The translations under genes were made by a program, and so were the position numbers. Positions 2,981 to 61,676 of a stretch of 64,000 nt of DNA are shown in pieces. The notes beneath the pieces are model-generated. The model ran no database searches. It was given only the letters and a program-made list of their open reading frames with translations, and was not told the origin of the DNA. Each line of letters opens with the position of its first letter. Position 1 is the stretch's first letter. Source of the DNA: Naegleria gruberi (taxonomy: Eukaryota); NCBI GenBank assembly GCA_000004985.1, contig GG738878.1; one strand, 5' to 3'.

Positions 2981-4269
2981 TTACCACCAAGGAACGAATC
3001 GGAAGGGTTCATTAAGGATCTTTTCATTTCTGAAGGAGTATAACTTGGATAATTCTTGTTGGGGGTAGACTGTGATTGGATTTAAATCATTGGTACTAGT
3101 TGAAGTGGAGTTTTTGCTTTCCAATTTCTTGAGATTTTCCTTGGCATCAGTTTGTAATTGTGAGAGCATGTCTTCTTTTCTGTAGAAGCGTTCATAGCAC
3201 CATTCATTGAATTGTTTCTCATCATGATGTGGAACGGTGTTGATTGGAATCTTTTTGATATTGACACAAATCTTGGTTCCTTTCAGACGTTTCATCAATA
3301 ATTCAGGAGCTCCCAAAACAGGGAATGCCTTATTGACGATTGAGGAAGCAACTTTCTTGTCATTCACTGCCTCTTTTCTACACGATTCAATGTATTCCCT
3401 AGTTGGTGGATATCCAATTGTCACGTCATAAATATATTTAATTCCATTGTCCTTTTCCACAGATAGATCAATATTTGCATTTTCCTGCTGAGTGGTAATT
3501 GCCTTAATCATCATTCCAAGTCCTTTCACTCTTGGAAGGACAACTTGATTTAATTCCCTCAATTTTCTCTCTCTGGCAAATTCATTTGATTTGGTAATAT
3601 TATTTTGGGTGATACGTGTTCCTTCAGGGAAAATCAAGACATAGCTTGGAATATTATCCTTCATTACAGAATTCACTGAATCTGCAATAGATTGTTGGTC
3701 TTTTTGCCAATTTCTATCCAAAACAATTTGTTTTCCTTTAATAATATCAAATAATAATACATTCCAATAATTATTTTCACATATCCACAAATCAATCCAA
3801 ATAAGTAATAATAATAGTAAAATAGGAAAATGAATTCAAACTCACCTAAAATTAACCCAGGAAAACCAAGGAATGGAATGATGAGTAAATCCTTCTTTGC
3901 CAAGAATTTCAAAAATCCCAACAATCCCTTTCTATAGGCAATACATGCCAACACTAGGAAATCAACATTACTCACATGATTACACATGACAAGTGCACTC
4001 TCCTTCTCTTTAATTTCATCTCCTGAAAATTCCAACTCACAACCAGCATAAACCTCTATGAAAAAGACAAACCAATAGAAACCCAATCCACTCACGCTCA
4101 AATTCAATACCTTGATGAATCTGGCAATTCTTGGATGTACTCTTCCGATAGTGTGGAGTAACAGCCAACAAGTAATTTGTGGAATGTTAATTGCCATGAA
4201 AATGTACAGCAGAAAAACAATTACCAACAGTGCAGACAGTACAGCACTGATAATCTTTTGCAATTTCAT
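2981..4269 (-). CDS. 1-acyl-sn-glycerol-3-phosphate / lysophospholipid acyltransferase (AGPAT/LCLAT-like), about 393 aa; intron at roughly 3736..3845
   Basis: It has N-terminal TM helices. Acyltransferase motif I is NHVSNVD in exon 1. Exon 2 carries motif II (VLDRNW) and motif III (FPEGTR). The donor is TTAG|GTGAGT and the acceptor is TTATTAAAG|GAAAAC. Joining is phase-consistent. Confidence 0.75.
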
Positions 4270-34406: not shown

Positions 34407-36709
34407 AACTGTGACAAGTTGATGATTATTCCTCGCATTAGCTTGTCCGGTAATTTCTCAATCCTTGCATAATCAGTGAAGAGGAGTTTTTTGTTTGAGA
34501 CTCCAAAGTTGACCAGTTCATTAAGAATATTCTCAAATAAAGGGCAATTTAAATAATTTTCAAAACTTGATGCAAGATCAAAGTAATTATCAATTGTAAT
34601 TATCAGCGTACTTTTAAAATAATCAACAAAATAATGAATTTCATGAATGATTGCCATATCAATTAATGTAAAAAGTTTTGATGGATCTATCTCGTAAACT
34701 GGAATTCCATAACAATATTTGATGATAATTTCTAATAATTCCAAATCCATTGAATCATCAGGTGTAAAGACATCATCACTAAGATCACTGAATGATGATC
34801 CACTTTCGAATAATGCATTAAAAAATGTACTTTTGGAACTGAGTATTGTTTTGTGGCAGTATAAATACTTGTCTTGTCCCATTTTGATTTTAACGTCGCT
34901 TGCTTTTTCATTATTAAATAATCTTTCAATTCCCTGTTGTTCAATTTCATTATCCTCCTGTATTTCAATTGGACTTGTAACATGTGTTTCCATTACAGAT
35001 AAAATGTTAAAGCTATATCTCTTAATGATGGGATAAGACAAAAGTGTTTTTCCTGTAAGAGACTTTAACTGGATGGCAGAATATTCCAAACAATAATTGT
35101 TCAAATATTCAAGTAAATGATTTTGAATTTCTATTTCTTCATGACAAAGTTTGAGTAAATTATCAACTTGTTCCCATTTTGAAGGAAGTGTTTCCAGTGT
35201 GATGGAATTAATAAATCCATGTACAAATGCTCTTTTAAAATCGATAAATTCACAATTCTTGAACATTCCTAAAATGAATAATACATTCAATATATCATAT
35301 TCTCTAAATGAATTCAATCTTTCAATCTCTGTAAATTGATATATATTTTCATATATCAATGAATCAATTAGTTTTTGTATAATTACTATTTGTTGCGAAT
35401 TCATTGATTTCAATAGTTTTTCATTTTTCAATATTATTTTACAAAATTGTGGTGATAACTTTTCTATTAATGGAATAAATCCAATCAATTCCAATCCAAA
35501 TAATTCATCTCTTGAATGTTTTTTCAATTGGATTTTTGGAATTATAGTATAATCATTTCCAATATGTGGATGCGATGAAAAATCAAATGGTGAATCACCT
35601 CCAAATCCTTCTTCACCATTTCCAGCAATTGTTTTAATTGTTCCATTTCTTAATATTTTTCTAATTCTATGATTTTCTGTATCAGCAATATAAACTTCAT
35701 CATTTCGAGAAACGAATATATTGTCTACATATGATATTTGTGCATTAATTGCAAGTCCTCCATCACCACTATATCCTTTAACTCCAGTTCCTGCAATTGT
35801 TGTAATATTGGCATTTCTTAATATTTTTCTAATTCTATAATTTCCACTATTCATAATATAAACTTCATTCGTTGATGAAACAAATACACCACATGGATGG
35901 TTAACTTGTGCATTAATTGCAGGACCACCATCACCACTGAATCCTTCTTCTCCAGTTCCTGCAATTGTATTAATAATTCCATTTCTTAATATTTTTCTAA
36001 TTCGATGATTGTTGTAATCTACAATATAAACTTCATCGTTATTAGAAACAAAAACACCACAAGGGCTGTCTAATTGTGCACTTGTTGCAGGGCCACCATC
36101 TCCACTAAATCCTTTTTCTCCAGTTCCTGCAATTGTTACAATAGTTCCATTTCTCAATATCTTTCTAATTCTATGATTTCCAAAATCAGAAAAATAAATT
36201 TCATCATTTTGAGAAACGAATATATTCTGTACATATGATATTTGTGCATTAATTGCAGGTCTACCATCACCACTATATCCTTTTTCTCCAGTTCCTGCAA
36301 TTGTTACAATATTGCCATTTCTTAATATTTTTCTAATTCTATAATTTCCACTATCAGCAAAAAAAACTTCATTCGTTGATGAAACAAATACACTACATGG
36401 ATGGCTCAATTGTGCACTTGTTGCAGGATCACCGTCACCACTAAATCCTTCTTCTCCAGTTCCTGCGATGGTGACTATAGTTCCATCTTTTAATATTTTT
36501 CTCACCCTATGATTTTGGCAATCTGCCATATAAACCTCATCATTCGGAGCAACAAACACTCCTCCCGGACAATTTAACATTGCTTTAGTGGCTAATTTTT
36601 TATTCATCATTTTAGCCTTTTTCTTTACTTTATTTTCGTCATTTTCATCATTTTCTGATGATGAAGAAGCCGATGATGATGCGGATGAAGAACAAAGGCT
36701 TCGTTTCAT
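34403..36709 (-). CDS. NHL-repeat beta-propeller protein with a C-terminal BTB/POZ domain (paralog A)
   Basis: About 769 aa from MKRSL at 36709. The ORF-track start at 36733 is an upstream in-frame TTG. It has at least 7 NHL-type repeats (..HRIRKILRNGTIVTIAGTGEEGFSGDGGPA..AQL..PCGVFVS..DEVY.AD..N). A helical middle region follows. The C-terminal BTB is DVKIKMGQDKYLYCHKTILSSKSTFFNALFESGSSFSDLSDDVFTPDDSMDLELLEIIIKYCYG. Its stop codon overlaps the stop of the convergent 7TM-RGS gene. Confidence 0.7.
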   Translation of the reverse strand: MKRSLCSSSASSSASSSSENDENDENKVKKKAKMMNKKLATKAMLNCPGGVFVAPNDEVYMADCQNHRVRKILKDGTIVTIAGTGEEGFSGDGDPATSAQLSHPCSVFVSSTNEVFFADSGNYRIRKILRNGNIVTIAGTGEKGYSGDGRPAINAQISYVQNIFVSQNDEIYFSDFGNHRIRKILRNGTIVTIAGTGEKGFSGDGGPATSAQLDSPCGVFVSNNDEVYIVDYNNHRIRKILRNGIINTIAGTGEEGFSGDGGPAINAQVNHPCGVFVSSTNEVYIMNSGNYRIRKILRNANITTIAGTGVKGYSGDGGLAINAQISYVDNIFVSRNDEVYIADTENHRIRKILRNGTIKTIAGNGEEGFGGDSPFDFSSHPHIGNDYTIIPKIQLKKHSRDELFGLELIGFIPLIEKLSPQFCKIILKNEKLLKSMNSQQIVIIQKLIDSLIYENIYQFTEIERLNSFREYDILNVLFILGMFKNCEFIDFKRAFVHGFINSITLETLPSKWEQVDNLLKLCHEEIEIQNHLLEYLNNYCLEYSAIQLKSLTGKTLLSYPIIKRYSFNILSVMETHVTSPIEIQEDNEIEQQGIERLFNNEKASDVKIKMGQDKYLYCHKTILSSKSTFFNALFESGSSFSDLSDDVFTPDDSMDLELLEIIIKYCYGIPVYEIDPSKLFTLIDMAIIHEIHYFVDYFKSTLIITIDNYFDLASSFENYLNCPLFENILNELVNFGVSNKKLLFTDYARIEKLPDKLMRGIIINLSQF

Positions 36710-36752
36710 TTTTTTTGTAAAAAAAATCTTCAAATGAAAAGATCAAGTCAAC

Positions 36753-39187
36753 NNNNNNNNNNNNNNNNNNNNNNNNNNNNNNNNNNNNNNNNNNNNNNNN
36801 NNNNNNNNNNNNNNNNNNNNNNNNNNNNNNNNNNNNNNNNNNNNNNNNNNNNNNNNNNNNNNNNNNNNNNNNNNNNNNNNNNNNNNNNNNNNNNNNNNNN
36901 NNNNNNNNNNNNNNNNNNNNNNNNNNNNNNNNNNNNNNNNNNNNNNNNNNNNNNNNNNNNNNNNNNNNNNNNNNNNNNNNNNNNNNNNNNNNNNNNNNNN
37001 NNNNNNNNNNNNNNNNNNNNNNNNNNNNNNNNNNNNNNNNNNNNNNNNNNNNNNNNNNNNNNNNNNNNNNNNNNNNNNNNNNNNNNNNNNNNNNNNNNNN
37101 NNNNNNNNNNNNNNNNNNNNNNNNNNNNNNNNNNNNNNNNNNNNNNNNNNNNNNNNNNNNNNNNNNNNNNNNNNNNNNNNNNNNNNNNNNNNNNNNNNNN
37201 NNNNNNNNNNNNNNNNNNNNNNNNNNNNNNNNNNNNNNNNNNNNNNNNNNNNNNNNNNNNNNNNNNNNNNNNNNNNNNNNNNNNNNNNNNNNNNNNNNNN
37301 NNNNNNNNNNNNNNNNNNNNNNNNNNNNNNNNNNNNNNNNNNNNNNNNNNNNNNNNNNNNNNNNNNNNNNNNNNNNNNNNNNNNNNNNNNNNNNNNNNNN
37401 NNNNNNNNNNNNNNNNNNNNNNNNNNNNNNNNNNNNNNNNNNNNNNNNNNNNNNNNNNNNNNNNNNNNNNNNNNNNNNNNNNNNNNNNNNNNNNNNNNNN
37501 NNNNNNNNNNNNNNNNNNNNNNNNNNNNNNNNNNNNNNNNNNNNNNNNNNNNNNNNNNNNNNNNNNNNNNNNNNNNNNNNNNNNNNNNNNNNNNNNNNNN
37601 NNNNNNNNNNNNNNNNNNNNNNNNNNNNNNNNNNNNNNNNNNNNNNNNNNNNNNNNNNNNNNNNNNNNNNNNNNNNNNNNNNNNNNNNNNNNNNNNNNNN
37701 NNNNNNNNNNNNNNNNNNNNNNNNNNNNNNNNNNNNNNNNNNNNNNNNNNNNNNNNNNNNNNNNNNNNNNNNNNNNNNNNNNNNNNNNNNNNNNNNNNNN
37801 NNNNNNNNNNNNNNNNNNNNNNNNNNNNNNNNNNNNNNNNNNNNNNNNNNNNNNNNNNNNNNNNNNNNNNNNNNNNNNNNNNNNNNNNNNNNNNNNNNNN
37901 NNNNNNNNNNNNNNNNNNNNNNNNNNNNNNNNNNNNNNNNNNNNNNNNNNNNNNNNNNNNNNNNNNNNNNNNNNNNNNNNNNNNNNNNNNNNNNNNNNNN
38001 NNNNNNNNNNNNNNNNNNNNNNNNNNNNNNNNNNNNNNNNNNNNNNNNNNNNNNNNNNNNNNNNNNNNNNNNNNNNNNNNNNNNNNNNNNNNNNNNNNNN
38101 NNNNNNNNNNNNNNNNNNNNNNNNNNNNNNNNNNNNNNNNNNNNNNNNNNNNNNNNNNNNNNNNNNNNNNNNNNNNNNNNNNNNNNNNNNNNNNNNNNNN
38201 NNNNNNNNNNNNNNNNNNNNNNNNNNNNNNNNNNNNNNNNNNNNNNNNNNNNNNNNNNNNNNNNNNNNNNNNNNNNNNNNNNNNNNNNNNNNNNNNNNNN
38301 NNNNNNNNNNNNNNNNNNNNNNNNNNNNNNNNNNNNNNNNNNNNNNNNNNNNNNNNNNNNNNNNNNNNNNNNNNNNNNNNNNNNNNNNNNNNNNNNNNNN
38401 NNNNNNNNNNNNNNNNNNNNNNNNNNNNNNNNNNNNNNNNNNNNNNNNNNNNNNNNNNNNNNNNNNNNNNNNNNNNNNNNNNNNNNNNNNNNNNNNNNNN
38501 NNNNNNNNNNNNNNNNNNNNNNNNNNNNNNNNNNNNNNNNNNNNNNNNNNNNNNNNNNNNNNNNNNNNNNNNNNNNNNNNNNNNNNNNNNNNNNNNNNNN
38601 NNNNNNNNNNNNNNNNNNNNNNNNNNNNNNNNNNNNNNNNNNNNNNNNNNNNNNNNNNNNNNNNNNNNNNNNNNNNNNNNNNNNNNNNNNNNNNNNNNNN
38701 NNNNNNNNNNNNNNNNNNNNNNNNNNNNNNNNNNNNNNNNNNNNNNNNNNNNNNNNNNNNNNNNNNNNNNNNNNNNNNNNNNNNNNNNNNNNNNNNNNNN
38801 NNNNNNNNNNNNNNNNNNNNNNNNNNNNNNNNNNNNNNNNNNNNNNNNNNNNNNNNNNNNNNNNNNNNNNNNNNNNNNNNNNNNNNNNNNNNNNNNNNNN
38901 NNNNNNNNNNNNNNNNNNNNNNNNNNNNNNNNNNNNNNNNNNNNNNNNNNNNNNNNNNNNNNNNNNNNNNNNNNNNNNNNNNNNNNNNNNNNNNNNNNNN
39001 NNNNNNNNNNNNNNNNNNNNNNNNNNNNNNNNNNNNNNNNNNNNNNNNNNNNNNNNNNNNNNNNNNNNNNNNNNNNNNNNNNNNNNNNNNNNNNNNNNNN
39101 NNNNNNNNNNNNNNNNNNNNNNNNNNNNNNNNNNNNNNNNNNNNNNNNNNNNNNNNNNNNNNNNNNNNNNNNNNNNNNNNNNNNNNN
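36753..39187. other. assembly gap (N-run, 2435 nt)
   Basis: A continuous run of n characters. ORF-track entries that cross it (X-stretch ORFs) are artifacts. Confidence 1.
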
Positions 39188-40599
39188 AAAATGAATAATA
39201 CATTCAATATATCATATACTCTAAATGAATTCAATCTTTCAACCTCTGTAAAATGATATATATTTTCATATATCAATGAATCAATTAGTTTTTGTATAAT
39301 TTCTATTTGTTGCGAATTCATTGATCTCAATAGTTTTTCATTTTTCAATATTATTTTACAAAATTGTGGTGATAATTTTTCTATTAATGGAATAAATCCA
39401 ATCAAATTCAATCCAAATAATTCATCTCTTGAATGTTTTTTCAATTGGATTTTTGGAATTATAGTATAATCATTTCCAATATGTGGATGCGATGAAAAAT
39501 CAAATGGTGAATCACCTCCAAATCCTTTTTCACCATTTCCAGCAATTGTTTCAATTGTTCCATCTTTCAATATTTTTCTAATTCGATGATTATTTGTATC
39601 AGCAATATAAACTTCATCATTTTGAGAAACAAATATATTCTCTACATATGATATTTGTGCATTAATTGCAAGTCCTCCATCACCACTATATCCTTTAACT
39701 CCAGTTCCTGCAATTGTTGTAATATTGCCATTTCTTAATATTTTCCTAATTCTATAATTATAACTATCAGTAATATAAACTTCATTCGTTGATGAAACAA
39801 ATACACCACATGGATGGCTCAATTGTGCACTTGTTGCAGGTCCTCCATCACCTCCAAATCCTTGTTCACCAGTTCCTGCAATTGTTATAATTGTTCCATC
39901 TTGCAACATCTTTCTAATTCGATGACTCTTGTAATCTACAATATAAACTTCATCGTTATTAGAAACAAAAACACCACAAGGGGTGTTTAATTTTGCATTA
40001 ATTGCAGGACCACCATCTCCACTAAATCCTTGTTCACCAGTTCCTGCAATTGTTACAATAGTTCCATTTCTCAATATCTTTCTAATTCTATGATTTCTAA
40101 AATCAGAAAAATAAACTTCATCATTTTGAGAAACGAATATATTATTTACAGCTGATATTTGTGCATTAATTGCAGGTCCTCCATCTCCACTATATCCTTC
40201 TTCTCCAGTTCCTGCAATTGTTACAATATTGCCATTTCTTAATATTTTTCTAATTCTATAATTTCCAAAATCAGAAATATAAACTTCATTCGTTGATGAA
40301 ACAAATACATCACATGGATGGTTAAATTGTGCACTTGTTGCAGGTCCACCATCACCACTGAATCCTTCTCCTTCTTCTTCTCCAATTCCTGCAATGGTGA
40401 CTATGGTTCCATCTTTTAATATTTTTCTCACCCGATGATTTAGGTTATCAGCAATATAAATTTCATCATTCGGAGCAACAAACACTCCTCCTGGACAATT
40501 TAACATTGCATCGGTGGCCATCATCATTTTGGCTTTTTTAAATTTATTTTCATCAGCAACATTTTCGTCATTATTAGAGGAAGCAAGACTTCGTTTCAT
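39188..40599 (-). CDS. NHL-repeat/BTB protein paralog B (5' part only; the 3' end lies in the assembly gap)
   Basis: It starts MKRSLASSNNDENVADENKFKKAKMMMATDAMLNCPGGVFVAPNDEIYIADNLNHRVRKIL.. and continues with NHL repeats. The sequence just right of the gap (39188..~39520) is about 97% identical to 35281..35610 of paralog A. Confidence 0.65.
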
Positions 40600-46011: not shown

Positions 46012-46838
46012 ATGTCTTCAGGATCCTCTTCTTGCAGTTCATGTGCCCACTTGGATTTCAAGCTCCTGACGAGTGAATATGTAACACAGGCAGCAGTGTT
46101 GGCCACTCAAACTTTTAGTTCAGGAGAGCCATTGTCTAAAGCCTTGAAATTCTCTCCTTTGGATATTTATTATTTCATGGAACATTATGCCAAGATTGCT
46201 GCTCGTGATGGTTTGGGTGCTGTTGCTGTGGATAGAAAATCAAAGTGAGTAATGTTAAATTGTTCATGATCATTCTAATTATTAATATTATTAATTAACA
46301 AATCAATTAATTGGATATATTGGAAATTAGTATGGTTGTTGCTGCAATAATAGGAGAAGATTTAGTCAAGGGAGCAAAAGAAGGAGCAAAGGAAATTGAA
46401 GATCACTACTCTGTAGATGCTCCACTCTTTAAAGTTTTTGGATTATTGGATCATCTTCATGAAAAGTATTGGGAATTGAATACAAATCAATCAAAAGAAG
46501 CATTCTATGTACCTGAAAATATCTCCAAAGTACTGCACATCTATGTTGGAGCTTCATATGAATTTGCTAGACGTGGAGGTGTTTCATTCGAATTGTCCAA
46601 ATTTCTATTGAGAAGTGTTCGTGAAAGAGGCTATACAATGGCACTCTCGGAAGCTACATCAGCCTACTCACAAGGATTGAGAAGAAAATTGGGTTTTGAA
46701 AGCAAGGCCTCTATCTCATATTCTGATGAAGAAACCCAGAAGAAATTCCCTTTTACTGCCTTGATAGAAGAACCACACAAATCTGTGGAAATGATGTGGT
46801 GTATGGATTTAAACTCTAATTCAATTATTAATAATTAA
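46012..46838 (+). CDS. GNAT-family N-acetyltransferase (arylalkylamine-NAT-like); two exons join(46012..46244, 46331..46838)
   Basis: Exon 1 is MSSGSSSCSSCAHLDFKLLTSEYVTQAAVLATQTFSSGEPLSKAL..AVDRKS. The donor is TCAAA|GTGAGT and the acceptor is AAATTAG|T. Exon 2 carries acetyl-CoA-binding-like motifs (FARRGGVSFELSKFLLRSVRERGYTMALSEATSAYSQGLRRKLGFE). Confidence 0.6.
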
Positions 46839-55518: not shown

Positions 55519-58500
55519 ATGAACAAAAGAAAAAGTCTTCATGCTAATTCTTCTAACAGCAGCAGATCATTCAGAGTATTAATATGTGGAGGTGGTGTGA
55601 GTGGTCTTGTATTTGCTCATTACTTGCTCAATCAGGAAGGTTGTGAAGGAATGAAACTTCCAATTGAAATTACCTTTGTTGAGAAGGCAACTAGATATGC
55701 TCAGGTAGGAGCTTTGATTACTGTAGATGGTAGGTTCTTAGTTTGTTTTAATTGTTGTAGGCTAATATCTTTTTGAATGTTTATGAATGTAAACTAATCT
55801 AAATTACACTAAACTAACAATTACAAAAGGACAACAAACTTTGGATATTTTGGGAGATATTGGAGTTTCATCAACAACATTACACGTACCATTGGAGAAA
55901 CATCACTATGTAGACTATAAGGGAAAATTAATTCGTGACTTTGATGCTTCGCTCATTCACAAATATAAGGATATTTCTAAACTATTCGAAAGGGCAACCG
56001 TACATTCGATTCTTTATGATAAAATTGGACCACAGATAGCAGATTTTAGATTTAAAACGGTGGTTCAGAGTATTTCTGAAACTTCTAGAGGACAAGGAGT
56101 CAAGATTCTTCTAGTTGACCGTAACACTTCATCATCAAATGATCGTTTATCCTTGGCGAGTGGAAGATGTGGAGTTTCACCTTCATTGCACATTGATCAG
56201 AATTTGTTAGGTCCTATTGATATCTGTTGAAAAGTTCACGCCGCTTTTTTGCAATGCTCCTTCAAACAATAGAATGCTCCCTTTTCCCGCCAATAAAAAC
56301 CGTTTGGATTGTAAAAATGATAAAATTCTGTTCACTGTGAACGTGTAACTTCTATTCAAATATTCGTATGGATGAACGGTTAGAATTAATCAAAATGAAA
56401 AGAAAGAACGTAGACGCCTCCAGCACTAACAAAAAACAAGCTACACTCGATGGCTTTGTTACCTCCAATCAACAAAATAGCCAAGGAGGAACACAACAGG
56501 ACCAACAAAATAGCCAAGATCAGCAATCAAGCCAACTCAGTCCATCCAACGGCCAAAACCTAACACCTAAATACTCTGCTAAGCAGTTGGATGATGAAAC
56601 TGATTGGATAGCATCTTTATTCAATTTTAACAAAGAAGGATTTGAAAAGGTTTCTTCCAACATTGTGTATCCTAAAATTACCGAAACTCCTACCACTCCT
56701 AAAACCATTCTGAGAAATGTAACTTGCACTGAGGTCAGCCTTGAACTTCTAATTTCAAACATGATTCCAAACCACTTTTGGCAAATACTATTGGACATAT
56801 TAAACACTAACTTGACCAGAGAGAGTACAACTGGAAAAGCATCTTCACACTCAAAGTATTACAATGATATTGATATCTCTCAGCTTTTCTCTTTTTTGGG
56901 AACTGTAATTAGCTTAGAAAACAACCATTCAAAGTTGAATGCCAATGCCAAAACCAATTTACAACAGCTTCGTGCAGAAAAGTTGGATAGCATGATTCCT
57001 GGTTATAGAAGATACTTTTCTTTGATGAAATGTTTTGCTCCTTCTGACCAACAATTTGAATTGATTTCAACAGCATTAAACGATATCACTTTAAATGCTG
57101 TTACAATTGGTTCCAATTTTGTTGTGGACGAAACAGTGTATGCATATCAGATTTCCTCAATCGTTAAAGCAGAGGCTGAACTCTTGCAATGTCCAATTCC
57201 AGTAGTGTACATTCCAAGAAAACCATATCCAAATGGACTTATGTCTTATAAGTTGTGTGTACTATTTCCTGGGTGTAGGAAACCTTATGTTTTAGCCATC
57301 CTTCCTCAATACAAAGTTCCTATGGATTCCCCTCAGGAAGCAATGTTAAAATTGTTGAAAATGGTTCGTGAATGTACTGATCAAAACTTGCATATTACTG
57401 GTGATGCTGCATTTGGTTCATTCACTATCTTTGATGAGCTAATCAAATTGAATGTTGTTGGCACTTTCTCTATTTCAGGTACTGAAAAGTCATGGATCTG
57501 GGATTTGTTGAAGAGAACACTCACTCATGGTAATTGGAAGGCTGCTGAATTTATTTCAAAATCTGTGATCGCTTCTATGCAAAGAAATCCTCAATACCAA
57601 TCAGACAGAGACAAGAAATATCACCATCTTGTTTCGAATGCATTTGATTTTGAACACTGCCAACCATTTCAGCAAACTCTTGCAAATATTCTACCTCCTT
57701 TTTGCAGAAAAATACGGTGGAAAAATTGAAAGAAATTGGAAAGAAGGAACATATCAAATTAAGTAAGCTCACTAAGGATGAAATCATCCAGAAGATTCAA
57801 TTTATTTGCAACTCCACAAATGTAAAATCACTTCAACTACATGCTTTGCATTCGTTTGATCAGAATCAATTTAACGCTACCTCTGCTATCCATCATGACC
57901 ATTATAGACGTACTTTTAATCTTGTCGACATTCAAGATAAGTACCATTATAAGGCTAGATATGCCTATATCATCACTGAGTGGAGAACCAAATTGATGAT
58001 CAGTTTATTGAATGATCTATTTTATAACTTGTTCGCTATTATGAATGAAACTGTTCGAATCAAATATTCAGACTTTAGAAAACTGCTGGCCGAAACCTTT
58101 CTCTCTATGGGAAAGAAACTTGGCGCCAAAAAATAACTCTCCTTCCAATAAACTTCCATTTTAATTTAATTTCACACAAAAAAATTCACCAACTTTAACC
58201 AAGCATATCCTCCTTAATACGCAACTATTCGTAAAAAAAATTACATATGGTATTAGTATCTGATCTTATCTCTTACCACCACAAAATTCAATATTCGATA
58301 TTAAGTAGTTGAGCGAAAAATCGCTTTTCCCAAAAAGGTATATGATGTCATAACTCACTAATTATCTCAATGAAAACAAAAGATTAAATATTCAAAAATG
58401 AATAGGATATAGTATACATGATATGAAATCATTCGTGTAAAATTCAAGATGTTATACCATGTATTAAACTAAATATTTCCTTTTAAAGAGGGAGCACTAG

Positions 58501-59822
58501 AAAAAAGCGGGAAAAACATTTCCACAGATATTGAAGAAGATGAGATTCAAGAAACTCCAAACAACAATCCCTCCACTCCAATCAAGTTCGAGGAGCCTCC
58601 TTCAAGTTTCAACGAATTTAATCCAATGAGGAGGGAGAATAGTCTTGGAACTCCAACCATGATGAAAGGTTCAGCTTCATTCTCTTCTCTTTCATCACTA
58701 AGTTCTCCATCTTCAAATCCTAACATGAGTCAACCAAATTTACTCATTGAAGAATTTGATTTGGTTGTTGGAGCTGATGGAATCAATTCTCAAACTAGAA
58801 ATTTAGTATTTGGACCAGATATTCAATTTAAAAAGTATTTAAATGTAGGATATATGTGTTTCATGGTTGATTTGGTAAATGATGCAAACGATATGGATCC
58901 TGCAATAACTGGAGAGAAAATATCATTGGAACATTGTAAAATATTGAGTAAGAAAGTGAAGGAAGGAATTGAAAGTTCTCACACTGTGTCTTTCCTTCTC
59001 GATAAGGGACGATACATGACCATTTCGAGAAATAAGAATCGTTGCTATGTTTCTTGTGCATTCACTTTGGATGAGATGGCTTCACAGAGTGAGGAATCAA
59101 ATGAAGGAAATACTGAGAGCAGTAAGAAGGACAAGGAAAAACGAACAAGCACATCTGGATCTTCATCTGGCTCATCTGATGAAGATAAAGACAAGAGCTC
59201 AGCATCTTCATCATCTGGTAGTAGAAAACTCTACACTCGACAAAACAAGTTGGATATTGATGTTGTCAAGAGAAAGCAATTCCTTGTGGAAAAGTTTGCA
59301 GATGTTCAACACCTCTTCCCTCAACTGATTCAGTTATTGGGTAATTCAAATTCAATTTACTATGATGATTTGGCTCAAATTCACATTGACAAGTGGCATA
59401 AGGGAAGAATAGTCTTGTTGGGAGACAGTTGTCAAGCACTGACTCCACTCAGTGGTAAAGGTGCTTCAATGGCTCTTGTTGGGGCCAAGACTCTTGCTGA
59501 CGAACTGAAACGAGTACTAGTTCAACATGCCAAGATGGATGGTGTCGATTATATTCGTGACATTCCTGTGGAAAAATTACTCAATCATCAGGATATGCCA
59601 TATTTGAAAGATGCTCTCGAATCATATGAACGTAAAATGCTGGATCGTATCAAGGAAATCCAGAGGAAAACAATTAGAGAAGGAGATTTCTTTTTAACAA
59701 CCTCTGCCTTTAAGCAATTCATTAGAAACTCGACACTGAAATACATGCCTAAAAAACTATTCCTAAAGCTTTCCAAAAAGGATGCTCAATCCAATGAAGA
59801 TCTTCAATCTTCCAAACCTTAA
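55519..59822 (+). CDS. FAD-dependent aromatic-ring monooxygenase (salicylate-hydroxylase/UbiH-like), interrupted by a piggyBac-like element; coding segments at approximately 55519..55729, 55830..56220 and 58535..59822
   Basis: Exon 1 has the Rossmann motif VLICGGGVSGLVFAHYLL and ends GAT G|GTAGGT. The acceptor ACAAAAG|GA gives ..VDGQQTLDILGD... The downstream part has the FAD-monooxygenase fingerprints DLVVGADGINSQTRN and GRIVLLGDSCQALTPLSGKGASMALVGAKTLADEL. The 56221..58530 segment between the parts is a transposable element (see the mobile_element feature). Confidence 0.7.
56221..56260 (+). repeat. left terminal inverted repeat of the piggyBac-like element
   Basis: It is the inverted match to 58491..58530 (31/40 positions identical). 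Confidence 0.65.
56368..58136 (+). CDS. piggyBac-like transposase (DDE_Tnp_1_7 family), about 590 aa; either frameshifted at about 57700 or containing one 77-nt intron (approximately 57630..57706)
   Basis: Motifs collinear with T. ni piggyBac are present: VVDETVYAYQ (IDEQLLGFRG region, first catalytic D), VVYIPRKPYPNGLMSYKLCVLFPGCRKPYVLAI (MYIPNKPSKYGIKILMMCD), HITGDAAFGSFTIFDELIKLNVVGTFSISGTEKS (NITCDNWFTSIPLAKNLL..LTIVGTVRSNKRE, second catalytic D). The two ORF-track pieces (56368..57729, 57702..58136) can be joined by a GTTTCG..TTTTTGCAG intron in phase 0. No C-terminal Cys-rich domain is evident. Confidence 0.7.
58491..58530 (-). repeat. right terminal inverted repeat of the piggyBac-like element
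   Basis: It is the inverted match to 56221..56260 (31/40 positions identical). Confidence 0.65.
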
Positions 59823-60003: not shown

Positions 60004-61676
60004 ATGCCACCAAACAACAAGGTTCGACCAGTCTCATCGAATACGACCACAACAACAGCATCGGAATCTAAATCTACTAAAGCATCATCGCCTCCTTCAA
60101 CAAGTGCCTCAGTTAATAATCAACAAAATTCCTTGAATAATACAGTTGCATCAAATGCTGATACATCCTCTTCGTATACAACAACAACAAGATCTAATTA
60201 TGATAACATGTCCGATTCGGGTGATGAGACTGGTATTAAAGTTGTGGTGAGAATGAGACCTTTCAATGATAGAGAAATGAAATTGAAAGCACAACCTTGT
60301 ATAACAATAACAAAAGCGAATAGAGAAGTTCTTATTAAGAGAAAAGACAAGGAAGATAAGAAATTCTATTTTGACGATGTGTTTGATGAGAATTCTACGC
60401 AACAGGAAGTTTATTCATCAACTGGTCAGAGAGTTTTAGATAGATATGTGTTAGGTTTTAATGTACGTATTAATTTGATGAGCAATTCTGAACTGTTTCA
60501 AAATATTTTACATATTTATTTCTGGATTAGGCTTGTATATTTGCGTATGGTCAAACTGGATCTGGTAAATCTGTAAGTAATCCATCTCTCTATTCAATGT
60601 GACAATTTAAATAGTGGACAATGCAAGGTATGAAAGGAAATCAAGAAAAGGAAGGAATCATGTCAAGATTTGTCAGAGAATTGTTTGGATATGTGGAACG
60701 AGAAAAGGAAAAGACTGACATCACTATTAAGGCATCCTATTTGGAAATTTACAATGAAAATATTTTGGACTTGTTGAATCCTCATAGTGGAAGAGTGAGT
60801 TATGAAATAAGAGAAGACAAAGTGAAAGGAACATATATTACAAACCTTATTGAAAAACCAATCACGACAGATACTGAGCTGAATGAAATTTTGGATGAGG
60901 GTGCAACAAGGAGAACTGTTGGAGAAACAAAAATGAATCAAGAATCGTCCAGATCTCATGGTATTCTTCAAATTTGTATGGAACAGGTTGATAAGGGAGA
61001 TGAGGATGGTTTCAGCTATAGATCCAATAAGATTTCACTCGTTGACTTGGCTGGTTCTGAAAGACAATCAGCTACTGAAGCAACAGGTGATAGATTGAAG
61101 GAAGGAGCTAAAATCAACTTGTCACTCTCCAACTTGGGTAATGTCATTAATGCACTTGTAAAGAAGACAAACTTTGTACCATATCGTAACTCCAAATTGA
61201 CCAGATTATTGAAAGATTCAATTGGTGGTAACTCCTATACGTTGTTGGTTGTTTGTGTGAGTCCTGCCGATGTCAACGCTGAAGAATCATTGAGCACTCT
61301 GTATTTTGCTGATAGGGCTAAACAAATCAAGAACAAACTCAAGGTTTCTAGAGGAGATCCTCGATTGGAAAAGATTGCAGAACTTCTCGAGATTGAAAAG
61401 CAATTGAGAGCTAGGGTTTTAGAACTGGAAACTGAATTATCGAAATATACCACTGTCCCTCCACCAGTGCAAAAGAGTCTTGCCACGAGTTCGACGGCGG
61501 TTGGTGAATCCATTAGTGCTTCTCAATTTGCCAAAATTAAGAATGACATGAAGGGAGAATCAAAAATTGTACAAACTGATCCAGTTCAATTCGCGGATGG
61601 AAAAACATATGAACCCCTCGATATTGAAAATCCTCAACAACCACCAAAGAAGCAGGGTTGTTGTTGCATTCAATAA
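60004..61676 (+). CDS. kinesin-like motor protein (N-terminal motor, short tail, C-terminal CCCIQ); three exons join(60004..60462, 60531..60572, 60615..61676), about 521 aa
   Basis: Exon 1 is IKVVVRMRPFNDREM..YFDDVFDENSTQQEVY..VLGFN|GTACGT. Exon 2 encodes the P-loop ACIFAYGQTGSGKS|GTAAGT (42-nt intron). Exon 3 is WTMQG..SSRSHGILQI (switch I)..LVDLAGSERQ (switch II) and so on. The tail ends KKQGCCCIQ. Confidence 0.8.

What the first reader, a model, noticed from the sequence alone, without database searches (positions are those of the whole stretch)
56217..58534. piggyBac-like transposon with its own transposase gene inside a monooxygenase gene; precise excision would restore the host reading frame
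An ORF clearly homologous to piggyBac transposases is bounded by 40-bp imperfect inverted repeats that start at the element termini (5'-TATCTGT...). Both TIRs are flanked by the same tetranucleotide, TTGA. The element lies between the Rossmann/N-terminal half and the DLVVGADG / GD..L.P half of one FAD-monooxygenase gene. Deleting 56221..58534 (the element plus one TTGA) joins the host sequence as ..GGT CCT ATT GAA GAA GAT GAG.. in a single open frame. That pattern is expected for a recent insertion into coding sequence, or for an element that is somatically or programmatically removed. The termini (TATCTG rather than CCC..GGG) and the TTGA flank (rather than TTAA) are non-canonical for piggyBac. 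This may be a divergent piggyBac-like lineage. An alternative gene model is also phase-compatible. In it the whole element sits in a 2.3-kb intron (donor TTAG|GTCCTA at about 56210, acceptor TTTTAAAG| at about 58488). The element could therefore be tolerated by splicing instead.
Basis: partly seen in the sequence, partly recalled or inferred. Interest (0 to 1): 0.8.

Follow-up and report, generated by a model that had tools for sequence, protein, structure and literature searches.

The report
Divergent piggyBac transposon splitting an amoeba gene
A 2.3-kb cut-and-paste transposon from an unusual branch of the piggyBac family sits inside the coding sequence of a flavin monooxygenase gene of the amoeba Naegleria gruberi; it is a real but probably dead insertion, and its relatives indicate that this branch inserts at ATAT rather than at the classic TTAA.

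Summary
The sequence facts are confirmed. The window is Naegleria gruberi. A 44-nt imperfect inverted repeat (34/44; the best of 100 shuffles reached 31) bounds an ORF annotated as hypothetical protein NAEGRDRAFT_80349. That ORF belongs to a divergent clade of the piggyBac superfamily, supported by a family profile hit to piggyBac 6x67 (E 3e-7), a fold match (E 6e-13), and a conserved DDD triad.

The element separates two colinear halves of one class-A FAD monooxygenase gene. Removing it restores the reading frame.

- **Target duplication.** It is most likely ATAT (56220-56223 and 58528-58531) next to a C-first TIR (CTGT…ACAG), not TTGA. Five independent relatives have the same ATAT|C…G|ATAT ends without any TTGA-type duplication. 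Two more distant relatives show non-palindromic 4-bp duplications (ATTT, AACT) at the same position.
- **The "77-nt intron".** It removes conserved residues. A -1 frameshift in a T5 run fits the family better by 20 bits, so this copy is probably defective.
- **The 2.3-kb host intron.** Its donor is unlike the three local introns.

The clade has an internal SAP-like domain and lacks the C-terminal Cys-rich domain. I rate it a new variant of a known kind, of moderate interest.

The parts
55519..55729 (+). Host FAD-monooxygenase exon 1 (Met, GxGxxG Rossmann motif VLICGGGVSG)
   Evidence: ORF and weak NAD/FAD-binding Pfam hits. Aligns colinearly to P0014 residues 11 onward.
55730..55829 (+). Host intron 1 (GTAGGT...AAAAG, 100 nt)
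   Evidence: Joining 55729 to 55830 keeps the frame and the alignment to P0014.
55830..56223 (+). Host exon 2, part upstream of the insertion, ending ...CCT ATT GAT AT. With the element in place the frame stops at TGA 56228-56230.
56217..56220 (.).
   Evidence: Present. The same position is not duplicated in the eight other related elements tabulated.
56220..56223 (.). Left copy of the inferred 4-bp target-site duplication ATAT
   Evidence: ATAT directly precedes the C-first TIR in the window, L001, L004, L066, L069 and L005.
56224..56263 (+). Left terminal inverted repeat, CTGTTGAAAAGTTCACGCCGCTTTTTTGCAATGCTCCTTC
56368..57702 (+). Transposase reading frame, first part (residues 1-445). Catalytic D254 at 57127-57129 and D346 at 57403-57405; conserved PIPVVYIPRKPxPNGL motif.
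57699..57703 (+). T5 run where a -1 frameshift joins the two transposase frames. The annotated ORF instead runs on to a stop at 57727-57729.
   Evidence: Frames. Alignment to 11 relatives. Bit scores 345.3 (frameshift), 325.3 (spliced), 255.4 (ORF1 only).
57702..58136 (+). Transposase reading frame, second part. SAP-like helix-extended loop-helix region about 57702-57806; third catalytic Asp (D521, FNLVD) at 57927-57929; stop at 58134-58136.
58488..58527 (-). Right terminal inverted repeat (reverse complement CTGTGGAAATGTTTTTCCCGCTTTTTTCTAGTGCTCCCTC)
58528..58531 (.). Right copy of the inferred target-site duplication ATAT
58531..58534 (.).
58532..59822 (+). Host exon 2, part downstream of the insertion (DLVVGADG and GDSCQALTPLSGKG motifs). 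The public annotation holds only 58626-59822 as a 398-aa 'predicted protein'.
   Evidence: PF01494 hit at E 4.6e-8. P0013 is 100% identical. Colinearity. PDB hits to Tet(50-56) destructases and 6-hydroxynicotinate monooxygenase.

Best explanation
The element is a cut-and-paste DNA transposon: 2304 bp (56224-58527) plus a duplicated ATAT. It belongs to a divergent clade of the piggyBac superfamily, and it inserted at an ATAT site inside exon 2 of a class-A flavoprotein monooxygenase gene of Naegleria gruberi.

What is shown here:
- The transposase has the piggyBac fold and the DDD triad (D254, D346, D521).
- Between the second and third Asp it carries a SAP-like DNA-binding module.
- It lacks the C-terminal cysteine-rich domain of canonical piggyBac.

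What is inferred by analogy with piggyBac chemistry:
- The enzyme would make 4-nt staggered cuts at the ends.
- Excision would reseal the donor to a single ATAT, giving ...CCT ATT GAT ATT GAA... (P-I-D-I-E) and an intact 631-aa host protein.

In this copy the transposase frame is broken by a 1-nt deletion in a T run just before the SAP-like module, so the encoded 453-aa product lacks the third catalytic Asp. The element is therefore probably immobile unless supplied in trans. The host allele is probably a null: a 203-aa N-terminal fragment, with the annotated 398-aa C-terminal fragment lacking the FAD-binding fold. Both host halves, both ATAT copies and almost all of the transposase ORF are still intact, so the insertion is recent.
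For: - Organism and ORF identity.
- TIR above chance.
- Superfamily membership. Profile hits to 6x67 (E 3.1e-7), 9c0f (2.6e-6) and the Ku70 SAP domain 1jjr (7.5e-7). PF13843 in 7 of 12 and SAP in 4 of 12 relatives. The AlphaFold model of P0002 (pLDDT 75, pTM 0.72) best matches 6x67_C (E 6e-13, TMt 0.64) and then piggyBat.
- Conserved Asp residues: D254 and D346 are invariant and D521 nearly invariant. D2 and D3 are aligned by HMMER to piggyBac CDNWF and GVDTLD.
- No Cys-rich C-terminus: 0-3 Cys in the last 80 residues of 42 full-length members.
- Ends: ATAT|C...G|ATAT in the window, L001, L004, L066 and L069. ATTT and AACT are perfect duplications in L067 and L036 (primary data). A first conserved C in piggyBac TIRs is reported in PMC5381638.
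- Host colinearity and frame restoration.
- Frameshift rather than intron. There is no GT between 57632 and 57707.
- Local intron consensus.
Against: - The window's own protein misses the Pfam threshold, so homology rests on the family.
- ATAT is a palindrome. Within the closest subfamily it cannot be formally separated from a TIR extension with a TA or zero-length duplication. The 4-bp reading leans on two more distant relatives, and four others have unequal 4-mers (L054, L005, and L042/L030/L034).
- The relatives are metagenomic contigs of unknown organisms, and such assemblies can be chimeric.
- TTGA on both sides has a chance probability of only about 1/256 under my model.
- The frameshift could be an assembly error in a homopolymer.
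- No transcript, population or second-haplotype data could be examined.
- Only one copy is seen, so mobility in N. gruberi is not shown.
Confidence: 0.72

Rival explanations
1. The element is TATCTGT...ACAGATA (56221-58530), it duplicated a near-canonical TTGA target, and excision would leave ...ATT GAA...
For: TTGA is present on both sides. It differs from TTAA by one base. Deleting 56221-58534 restores the frame. piggyBac chemistry does not require a palindromic duplication (established knowledge of the hairpin mechanism).
Against: All 8 other ends examined also have A before TATCTGT, so that A is conserved, not a random target base. The corresponding 4-mers are not duplicated in L001, L004, L066 or L069, although those elements have intact ORFs and well-matched TIRs. 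The C-first boundary yields perfect non-palindromic duplications in L067 and L036.
Confidence: 0.12
2. The element is tolerated because it lies in a 2.3-kb spliceosomal intron (donor G|GTCCTA at 56211, acceptor AAAG| at 58488), so the monooxygenase is still made.
For: The model is phase-compatible and gives an open 641-aa product. The C-half frame is open back to 58473.
Against: The three introns of this window that can be verified by conserved protein motifs have donors GTAGGT, GTACGT and GTAAGT and are 42-100 nt long. GTCCTA lacks the +3 A, +5 G and +6 T. The model would translate part of the right TIR. The public proteome has no model spanning the element: only the 398-aa C-half was found.
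Confidence: 0.05
3. The element is removed precisely from DNA in some cells or life stages (an IES-like programmed or frequent somatic excision), so the interrupted gene is functional.
For: The evidence is circumstantial. Excision would be seamless and in frame, both host halves are intact, and domesticated piggyBac transposases do this in ciliates (established knowledge).
Against: The only transposase of this family found in the N. gruberi proteome is this copy, and it is frameshifted. No programmed DNA elimination is known in Naegleria. One insertion in a gene is what any recent transposition gives.
Confidence: 0.03
4. The ORF is a domesticated transposase-derived host gene rather than part of a mobile element.
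For: It is the only family member in the annotated N. gruberi proteome.
Against: It is still bounded by family-typical TIRs and a duplicated ATAT. It sits inside another gene's coding sequence, and it carries a frameshift that removes the third catalytic Asp and the conserved C-terminal third.
Confidence: 0.03

Closest known systems
Trichoplusia ni piggyBac (PDB 6x67/6x68) and piggyBat (9c0f)
   Same: The fold is the same RNase-H-like catalytic core with an insertion domain (Foldseek E 6e-13 and 2e-9). The DDD triad sits in the same motifs: IDE..., YIPxKPxxxG, xDxxF and VDxxD. Both have one ORF, TIRs whose first base is C, a 4-bp AT-rich duplication, and an expected seamless excision.
   Different: Sequence identity is only 11-13% in the structural alignment. 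The inferred target is ATAT (A-N-N-T in more distant clade members), not TTAA. The ends are CTGT...ACAG, not CCC...GGG. A SAP-like module lies between D2 and D3. There is no C-terminal cysteine-rich domain, which in piggyBac binds the TIR. There is also a 12-residue longer spacer between D1 and the YIPxKP motif.
Domesticated ciliate piggyBac transposases (Paramecium PiggyMac, Tetrahymena Tpb2)
   Same: Both are piggyBac-derived enzymes that act at non-TTAA sites with 4-nt staggered cuts. In Paramecium the cuts are centred on TA, and ATAT fits N-TA-N. Both remove DNA from within genes. This comparison rests on my own knowledge and was not tested here.
   Different: Those are host genes without TIRs that act on thousands of IESs. 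This is a single TIR-bounded element with a broken transposase. No sequence comparison with them was made.
PiggyBac-class repeats reported in Naegleria lovaniensis
   Same: The genus and the superfamily label are the same: 29 RepeatMasker 'PiggyBac' fragments, 0.08% of the genome (PMC6125883).
   Different: That report gives only a repeat-class count, with no element structure, target site or protein architecture. I could not test whether they are the same clade.
Rare non-TTAA piggyBac-like elements listed by Bouallegue et al. 2017
   Same: ATAT is among the exceptional flanks seen for single sequences among 157 PBLEs (PMC5381638).
   Different: Those authors treat such cases as mutated TTAA. 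Here ATAT recurs at both ends of five independent elements of one clade.

Membership tests
piggyBac superfamily (Pfam DDE_Tnp_1_7, PF13843) | Significant sequence similarity of the transposase to the DDE_Tnp_1_7 profile or to piggyBac proteins | tested here: met
   The window protein alone is sub-threshold (19.1 bits against 22.4; none for the spliced or frameshift-corrected forms). However, 7 of 12 homologues pass (best E 9e-12), and the family profile hits 6x67 at E 3.1e-7 and 9c0f at 2.6e-6.
piggyBac superfamily | piggyBac-type fold (RNase-H-like core with insertion domain) | tested here: met
   The model of P0002 (35% identical to the window protein; pLDDT 75) has 6x67_C as its top PDB match (E 6e-13, TMt 0.64), then piggyBat, and Tn5 only at 5e-5. 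The window's own protein was not modelled.
piggyBac superfamily | Catalytic DDD triad | tested here: met
   D254 and D346 are invariant and D521 nearly invariant in the family alignment. D346 and D521 align to piggyBac D346 and D447. D254 matches by the IDE motif, although HMMER's alignment is shifted there. In the genome as assembled, D521 is out of frame.
piggyBac superfamily | TTAA target-site duplication | tested here: not met
The length (4 bp) and the AT-richness are kept.
piggyBac superfamily | TIRs beginning with a conserved C (canonically CCC...GGG) | tested here: met
   With the 4-bp duplication removed, the ends are CTGT...ACAG. All nine related elements tabulated start with C and end with G. 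CCC...GGG itself is seen only in the more distant L036-type relatives.
piggyBac superfamily (canonical autonomous PBLE) | C-terminal cysteine-rich (PHD-like) DNA-binding domain | tested here: not met
   The protein ends about 70 residues after D3. There are 0-3 Cys in the last 80 residues of 42 full-length clade members. A SAP-like module is present instead.
piggyBac superfamily | Precise (footprint-free) excision | not testable with these tools
   This needs empty-site alleles or an excision assay. Only the in-frame consequence could be computed.
Class A flavoprotein monooxygenase (PF01494), the host gene | N-terminal GxGxxG, DG motif (DLVVGADG) and GD motif in one colinear polypeptide | tested here: met
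   All three motifs are present only when the two flanks are joined. The joined protein is colinear with P0014 and has PF01494 at E 4.6e-8 and PDB relatives.

The most novel reading that the evidence does not exclude
The element is excised precisely from the monooxygenase gene in some cells or life stages of Naegleria, in the manner of an IES. A trans-acting or frameshift-suppressed piggyBac-type enzyme acting at ATAT would do this, so that an apparently broken gene is functional.
Probability: 0.03. Interest if true: 0.9.

Novelty: new variant of a known kind. Interest (0 to 1): 0.45.

Why it matters
piggyBac is defined, and mined in databases, by TTAA targeting and a C-terminal cysteine-rich domain. 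A recent survey of 116,216 elements required both (PMC13461360), so it would have discarded this clade.

This protist clade has at least 257 clusters at 50% identity with E<=1e-30. It keeps the piggyBac fold and DDD triad, swaps the Cys-rich domain for an internal SAP-like module, and appears to insert at ATAT or A-N-N-T. That would show that target choice in this superfamily is evolvable. It would give a natural starting point for non-TTAA piggyBac tools. It would also provide a free-living comparison for the TA-centred cleavage of the ciliate domesticated enzymes.

For Naegleria genomics the practical points are smaller:
- NAEGRDRAFT_80349 is a frameshifted transposase.
- The neighbouring 398-aa 'predicted protein' is the C-terminal half of a gene disrupted by it.

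Tried and rejected
- **Exact-protein look-ups.** I looked up the transposase (P0001) and the host C-half (P0013) to find other assemblies or an empty-site allele. Neither is on record.
- **More copies or MITEs in the window.** Searches with 24-nt termini at up to 3 mismatches found none. A 14-nt degenerate terminus gave two extra hits (3453-3466 and 46779-46792) that do not extend into the TIR, so they are chance.
- **L001 as a frame-restoration test.** The element lies about 27 codons before the end of an EGF/laminin-G ORF. Both boundary models differ by 6 nt, so both stay in frame and the test does not discriminate.
- **GT...AG inside the TIRs (56226...58528) as introner-like splice sites.** The length is 2303 nt, which is out of frame. 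Rejected from the coordinates.
- **Other boundary models.** An AT duplication (remove 2310 nt) and no duplication (remove 2312 nt) both leave the host out of frame. Rejected.
- **Programmed -1 frameshifting at the T5 run.** P-site slippage is possible in principle, but all relatives have continuous ORFs, so a mutation is simpler.
- **Relatives with no usable duplication.** L039, L042, L030, L034, L017, L013, L021, L029 and L040 have TIRs, but their 4-mers are unequal or unreadable. L068 and L071 gave no clear TIR.
- **GC content.** The element is 34.5% GC, the same as its surroundings, so composition gives no sign of recent horizontal arrival.
Full report
**1. What is in the sequence**

The window is Naegleria gruberi. 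ORF 56368-57729 is 100% identical to NAEGRDRAFT_80349, a 'hypothetical protein'. ORF 58626-59822 is 100% identical to a 398-aa N. gruberi 'predicted protein'.

The longest inverted repeat in 56100-58650 has arms 56220-56263 and 58488-58531: 44 nt with 34 matches. In 100 dinucleotide-preserving shuffles the best 44-nt inverted repeat averaged 27.2 matches (sd 0.92, maximum 31), so the repeat is not chance. TTGA occurs at 56217-56220 and at 58531-58534. No other copy of either terminus lies in the 64 kb. Two 14-nt near-matches do not extend.

**2. The transposase**

On its own the window ORF only grazes Pfam DDE_Tnp_1_7 (E 9e-4, 19.1 bits, cut-off 22.4). The database search found eleven relatives at 23-35% identity (E 9e-87 to 6e-14), several carrying PF13843 and some a SAP domain.

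- A profile of the family hits the solved piggyBac transposase 6x67 (E 3.1e-7), piggyBat 9c0f (2.6e-6) and the SAP domain of Ku70 (1jjr, 7.5e-7).
- An AlphaFold model of the closest intact relative, P0002 (pLDDT 75, pTM 0.72), has 6x67_C as its best PDB match (E 6e-13, TMt 0.64). piggyBat follows, and Tn5 is far behind.
- In the family alignment D254 and D346 are invariant and D521 nearly so, within IDE, xDAAFG and FNLVD motifs. HMMER pairs the last two with piggyBac's CDNWF and GVDTLD.
- The hallmark YIPxKPxxxG motif is PVVYIPRKPYPNGL here.
- The protein ends about 70 residues after the third Asp. Forty-two full-length clade members have 0-3 Cys in their last 80 residues, so the cysteine-rich domain of canonical piggyBac is absent.
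- A SAP-like module lies between the second and third Asp.

An exhaustive profile search found 2024 clusters at 50% identity with E<=1e-3, 1063 with E<=1e-10 and 257 with E<=1e-30. This is a sizeable but specific clade.

**3. The transposase frame is broken, not spliced**

The relatives have continuous ORFs. They conserve L-x-S/T-N-x-F and P-x-F-T motifs, which in the window are encoded inside that 'intron' (HHLVSNAF...ILPPF).

- Reading frame 0 up to the T5 run at 57699-57703 and then frame -1 gives ...ILPPF|LQKNTVEKLKEIG..., which aligns throughout.
- Against an HMM built from the relatives alone, this frameshift model scores 345.3 bits. The spliced model scores 325.3 and the annotated ORF alone 255.4.
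- There is no GT between 57632 and 57707. The only donor, GTTTCG, does not resemble local donors.

The simplest reading is a 1-nt deletion in a homopolymer, or less likely an assembly error. As assembled, the 453-aa product lacks the SAP-like module and the third catalytic Asp.

**4. The host gene**

Exon 1 (55519-55729) carries the GxGxxG motif. A 100-nt intron (GTAGGT...AAAAG) follows. Exon 2 runs from 55830 to the element and resumes after it, down to 59822, carrying DLVVGADG and GDSCQALTPLSGKG.

The conceptually joined protein is colinear with a 439-aa FAD monooxygenase (25-167/11-147, 273-295/151-173, 446-532/249-339). It also matches PF01494 and solved class-A monooxygenases. The insertion lies in a Naegleria-specific low-complexity loop just before the DG motif.

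With the element present, the upstream frame stops two codons into it (TGA 56228-56230). The public proteome has no model covering the N-terminal half or spanning the element.

**5. Where the element really ends**

I retrieved contigs for related transposases and read their ends. The results are tabulated.

- Five independent elements all have ATAT|C...G|ATAT: the window, L001, L004, L066 and L069.
- L005 has ATAT on the left and ATTT on the right.
- L007 and L008 share one right end...ACAG|ATAT.
- The base before TATCTGT is therefore always A, which a random target base would not be.
- Two more distant clade members have perfect non-palindromic 4-bp duplications directly next to a C-first TIR: L067 ATTT|CTCTGG...CCAGAG|ATTT and L036 AACT|CCCCC...GGGGG|AACT.
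- A conserved first C is the one constant feature of piggyBac TIRs (PMC5381638).

The most economical anatomy is a 4-bp duplication, ATAT in this subfamily and A-N-N-T more widely, flanking CTGT...ACAG.

For the window this gives the duplication at 56220-56223 and 58528-58531, with the element at 56224-58527 (2304 bp). The pre-insertion sequence would be CCT ATT GAT ATT GAA, which is in frame (P-I-D-I-E). The TTGA coincidence arises because that site contains ATTGAT|ATTGAA.

Caveats:
- ATAT is palindromic, so within the subfamily a TA duplication with A/T as TIR bases gives the same empty site and cannot be excluded.
- Several distant relatives have unequal 4-mers (L054, L042, L030, L034), though all are of A..T form.
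- Metagenome contigs can be chimeric.

**6. Intron residence**

Three introns in this window can be verified from conserved protein sequence:
- the host intron (GTAGGT, 100 nt);
- a kinesin intron (GTACGT, 60463-60530, 68 nt);
- a second kinesin intron (GTAAGT, 60573-60614, 42 nt).

The two kinesin introns flank the GQTGSGKS P-loop.

The proposed 2278-nt intron has donor GTCCTA and would translate part of the right TIR. It is phase-compatible but unlikely.

**7. Mechanism**

Shown:
- piggyBac-type enzyme architecture with the triad;
- TIRs;
- a 4-bp AT-rich flank;
- gene interruption;
- in-frame restoration on removal.

Inferred from piggyBac chemistry:
- 3'-OH nicks, hairpins on the transposon ends and 4-nt 5' overhangs on the donor flanks that re-anneal;
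- hence seamless excision.

Inferred from architecture:
- the SAP-like module may take over the end binding done by the cysteine-rich domain in canonical piggyBac.

The intact host halves, the intact duplications and a transposase ORF with only one lesion indicate a recent insertion. The frameshift indicates that this copy is now non-autonomous.

**8. Comparison and novelty**

Membership of the piggyBac superfamily is met for sequence, fold, triad, C-first TIR and 4-bp duplication. It is not met for the TTAA target or the cysteine-rich domain.

- PiggyBac-class repeats have been counted in N. lovaniensis (PMC6125883), but without structural description.
- A large mining study required TTAA and the cysteine-rich domain (PMC13461360).
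- A survey of 157 elements treated non-TTAA flanks as mutations (PMC5381638).
- Searches for piggyBac with SAP, or with ATAT, found nothing relevant.

I therefore rate it a new variant of a known kind, with the reservation that Repbase could not be consulted. The single insertion itself is ordinary. The clade-level properties are the interesting part.

**9. Verdict**

Confidence by claim:
- piggyBac-superfamily transposon: about 0.95;
- insertion in coding exon: about 0.85;
- ATAT rather than TTGA: about 0.8;
- frameshift rather than intron: about 0.8.

Interest is 0.45.

Noticed in passing
window 36753-39187: This is a 2435-nt run of N, a scaffold gap. It explains the apparent 12% GC at 36-40 kb. 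It is flanked on both sides by arrays of a 168-nt (56-codon) tandem repeat at 35594-36540 and 39511-40369. The long 'ORFs' listed across 36648-40599 are artefacts of the Ns.
   Followed up: partly
window 60004-61676: A kinesin motor gene has two very short introns (60463-60530, GTACGT...TTAG, 68 nt; 60573-60614, GTAAGT...ATAG, 42 nt) on either side of the GQTGSGKS P-loop exon. They were useful as local splice-site references.
   Followed up: partly
window 55519-56223: The N-terminal half of the monooxygenase gene (Rossmann fold, one intron) has no counterpart in the public N. gruberi proteome. Only the C-terminal 398 aa are annotated, starting at an internal Met.
   Followed up: yes
L036, L042, L030, L034 (metagenome contigs): A second subfamily of the same transposase clade has TIRs starting CCCCCTC(G/A)G. 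All eight of its flanking 4-mers are of the form A-N-N-T, yet they are identical on both sides in only one element (AACT). The cause is unclear: mutation, chimeric assembly, or something about the mechanism.
   Followed up: partly
L067 4199-6531: The related element with the ATTT duplication lies next to ORFs with reverse-transcriptase and RNase H hits, so it sits in a transposon-rich stretch of an unknown eukaryote.
   Followed up: no
L001 3812-6874 and 1421-1591 (minus strand): The closest relative of the window's element is also inserted within an ORF, about 27 codons before the end of a >1020-aa EGF/laminin-G protein. Removing the element plus one ATAT keeps that frame open to a stop at 1421.
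   Followed up: partly
L029 110-146 and 2235-2271: This related element has a 37-nt TIR containing two GTGAACA repeats. An internal TATCTGG motif resembles the outer end of the window's subfamily. It may be a nested or rearranged end.
   Followed up: no
window 56255-56295 and 58488-58520: Short motifs recur in both subterminal regions of the element: (A/G)TGCTCC(C/T)T and TTTCCCGC, and CGCTTTTTT. They are candidate transposase-binding sites.
   Followed up: no
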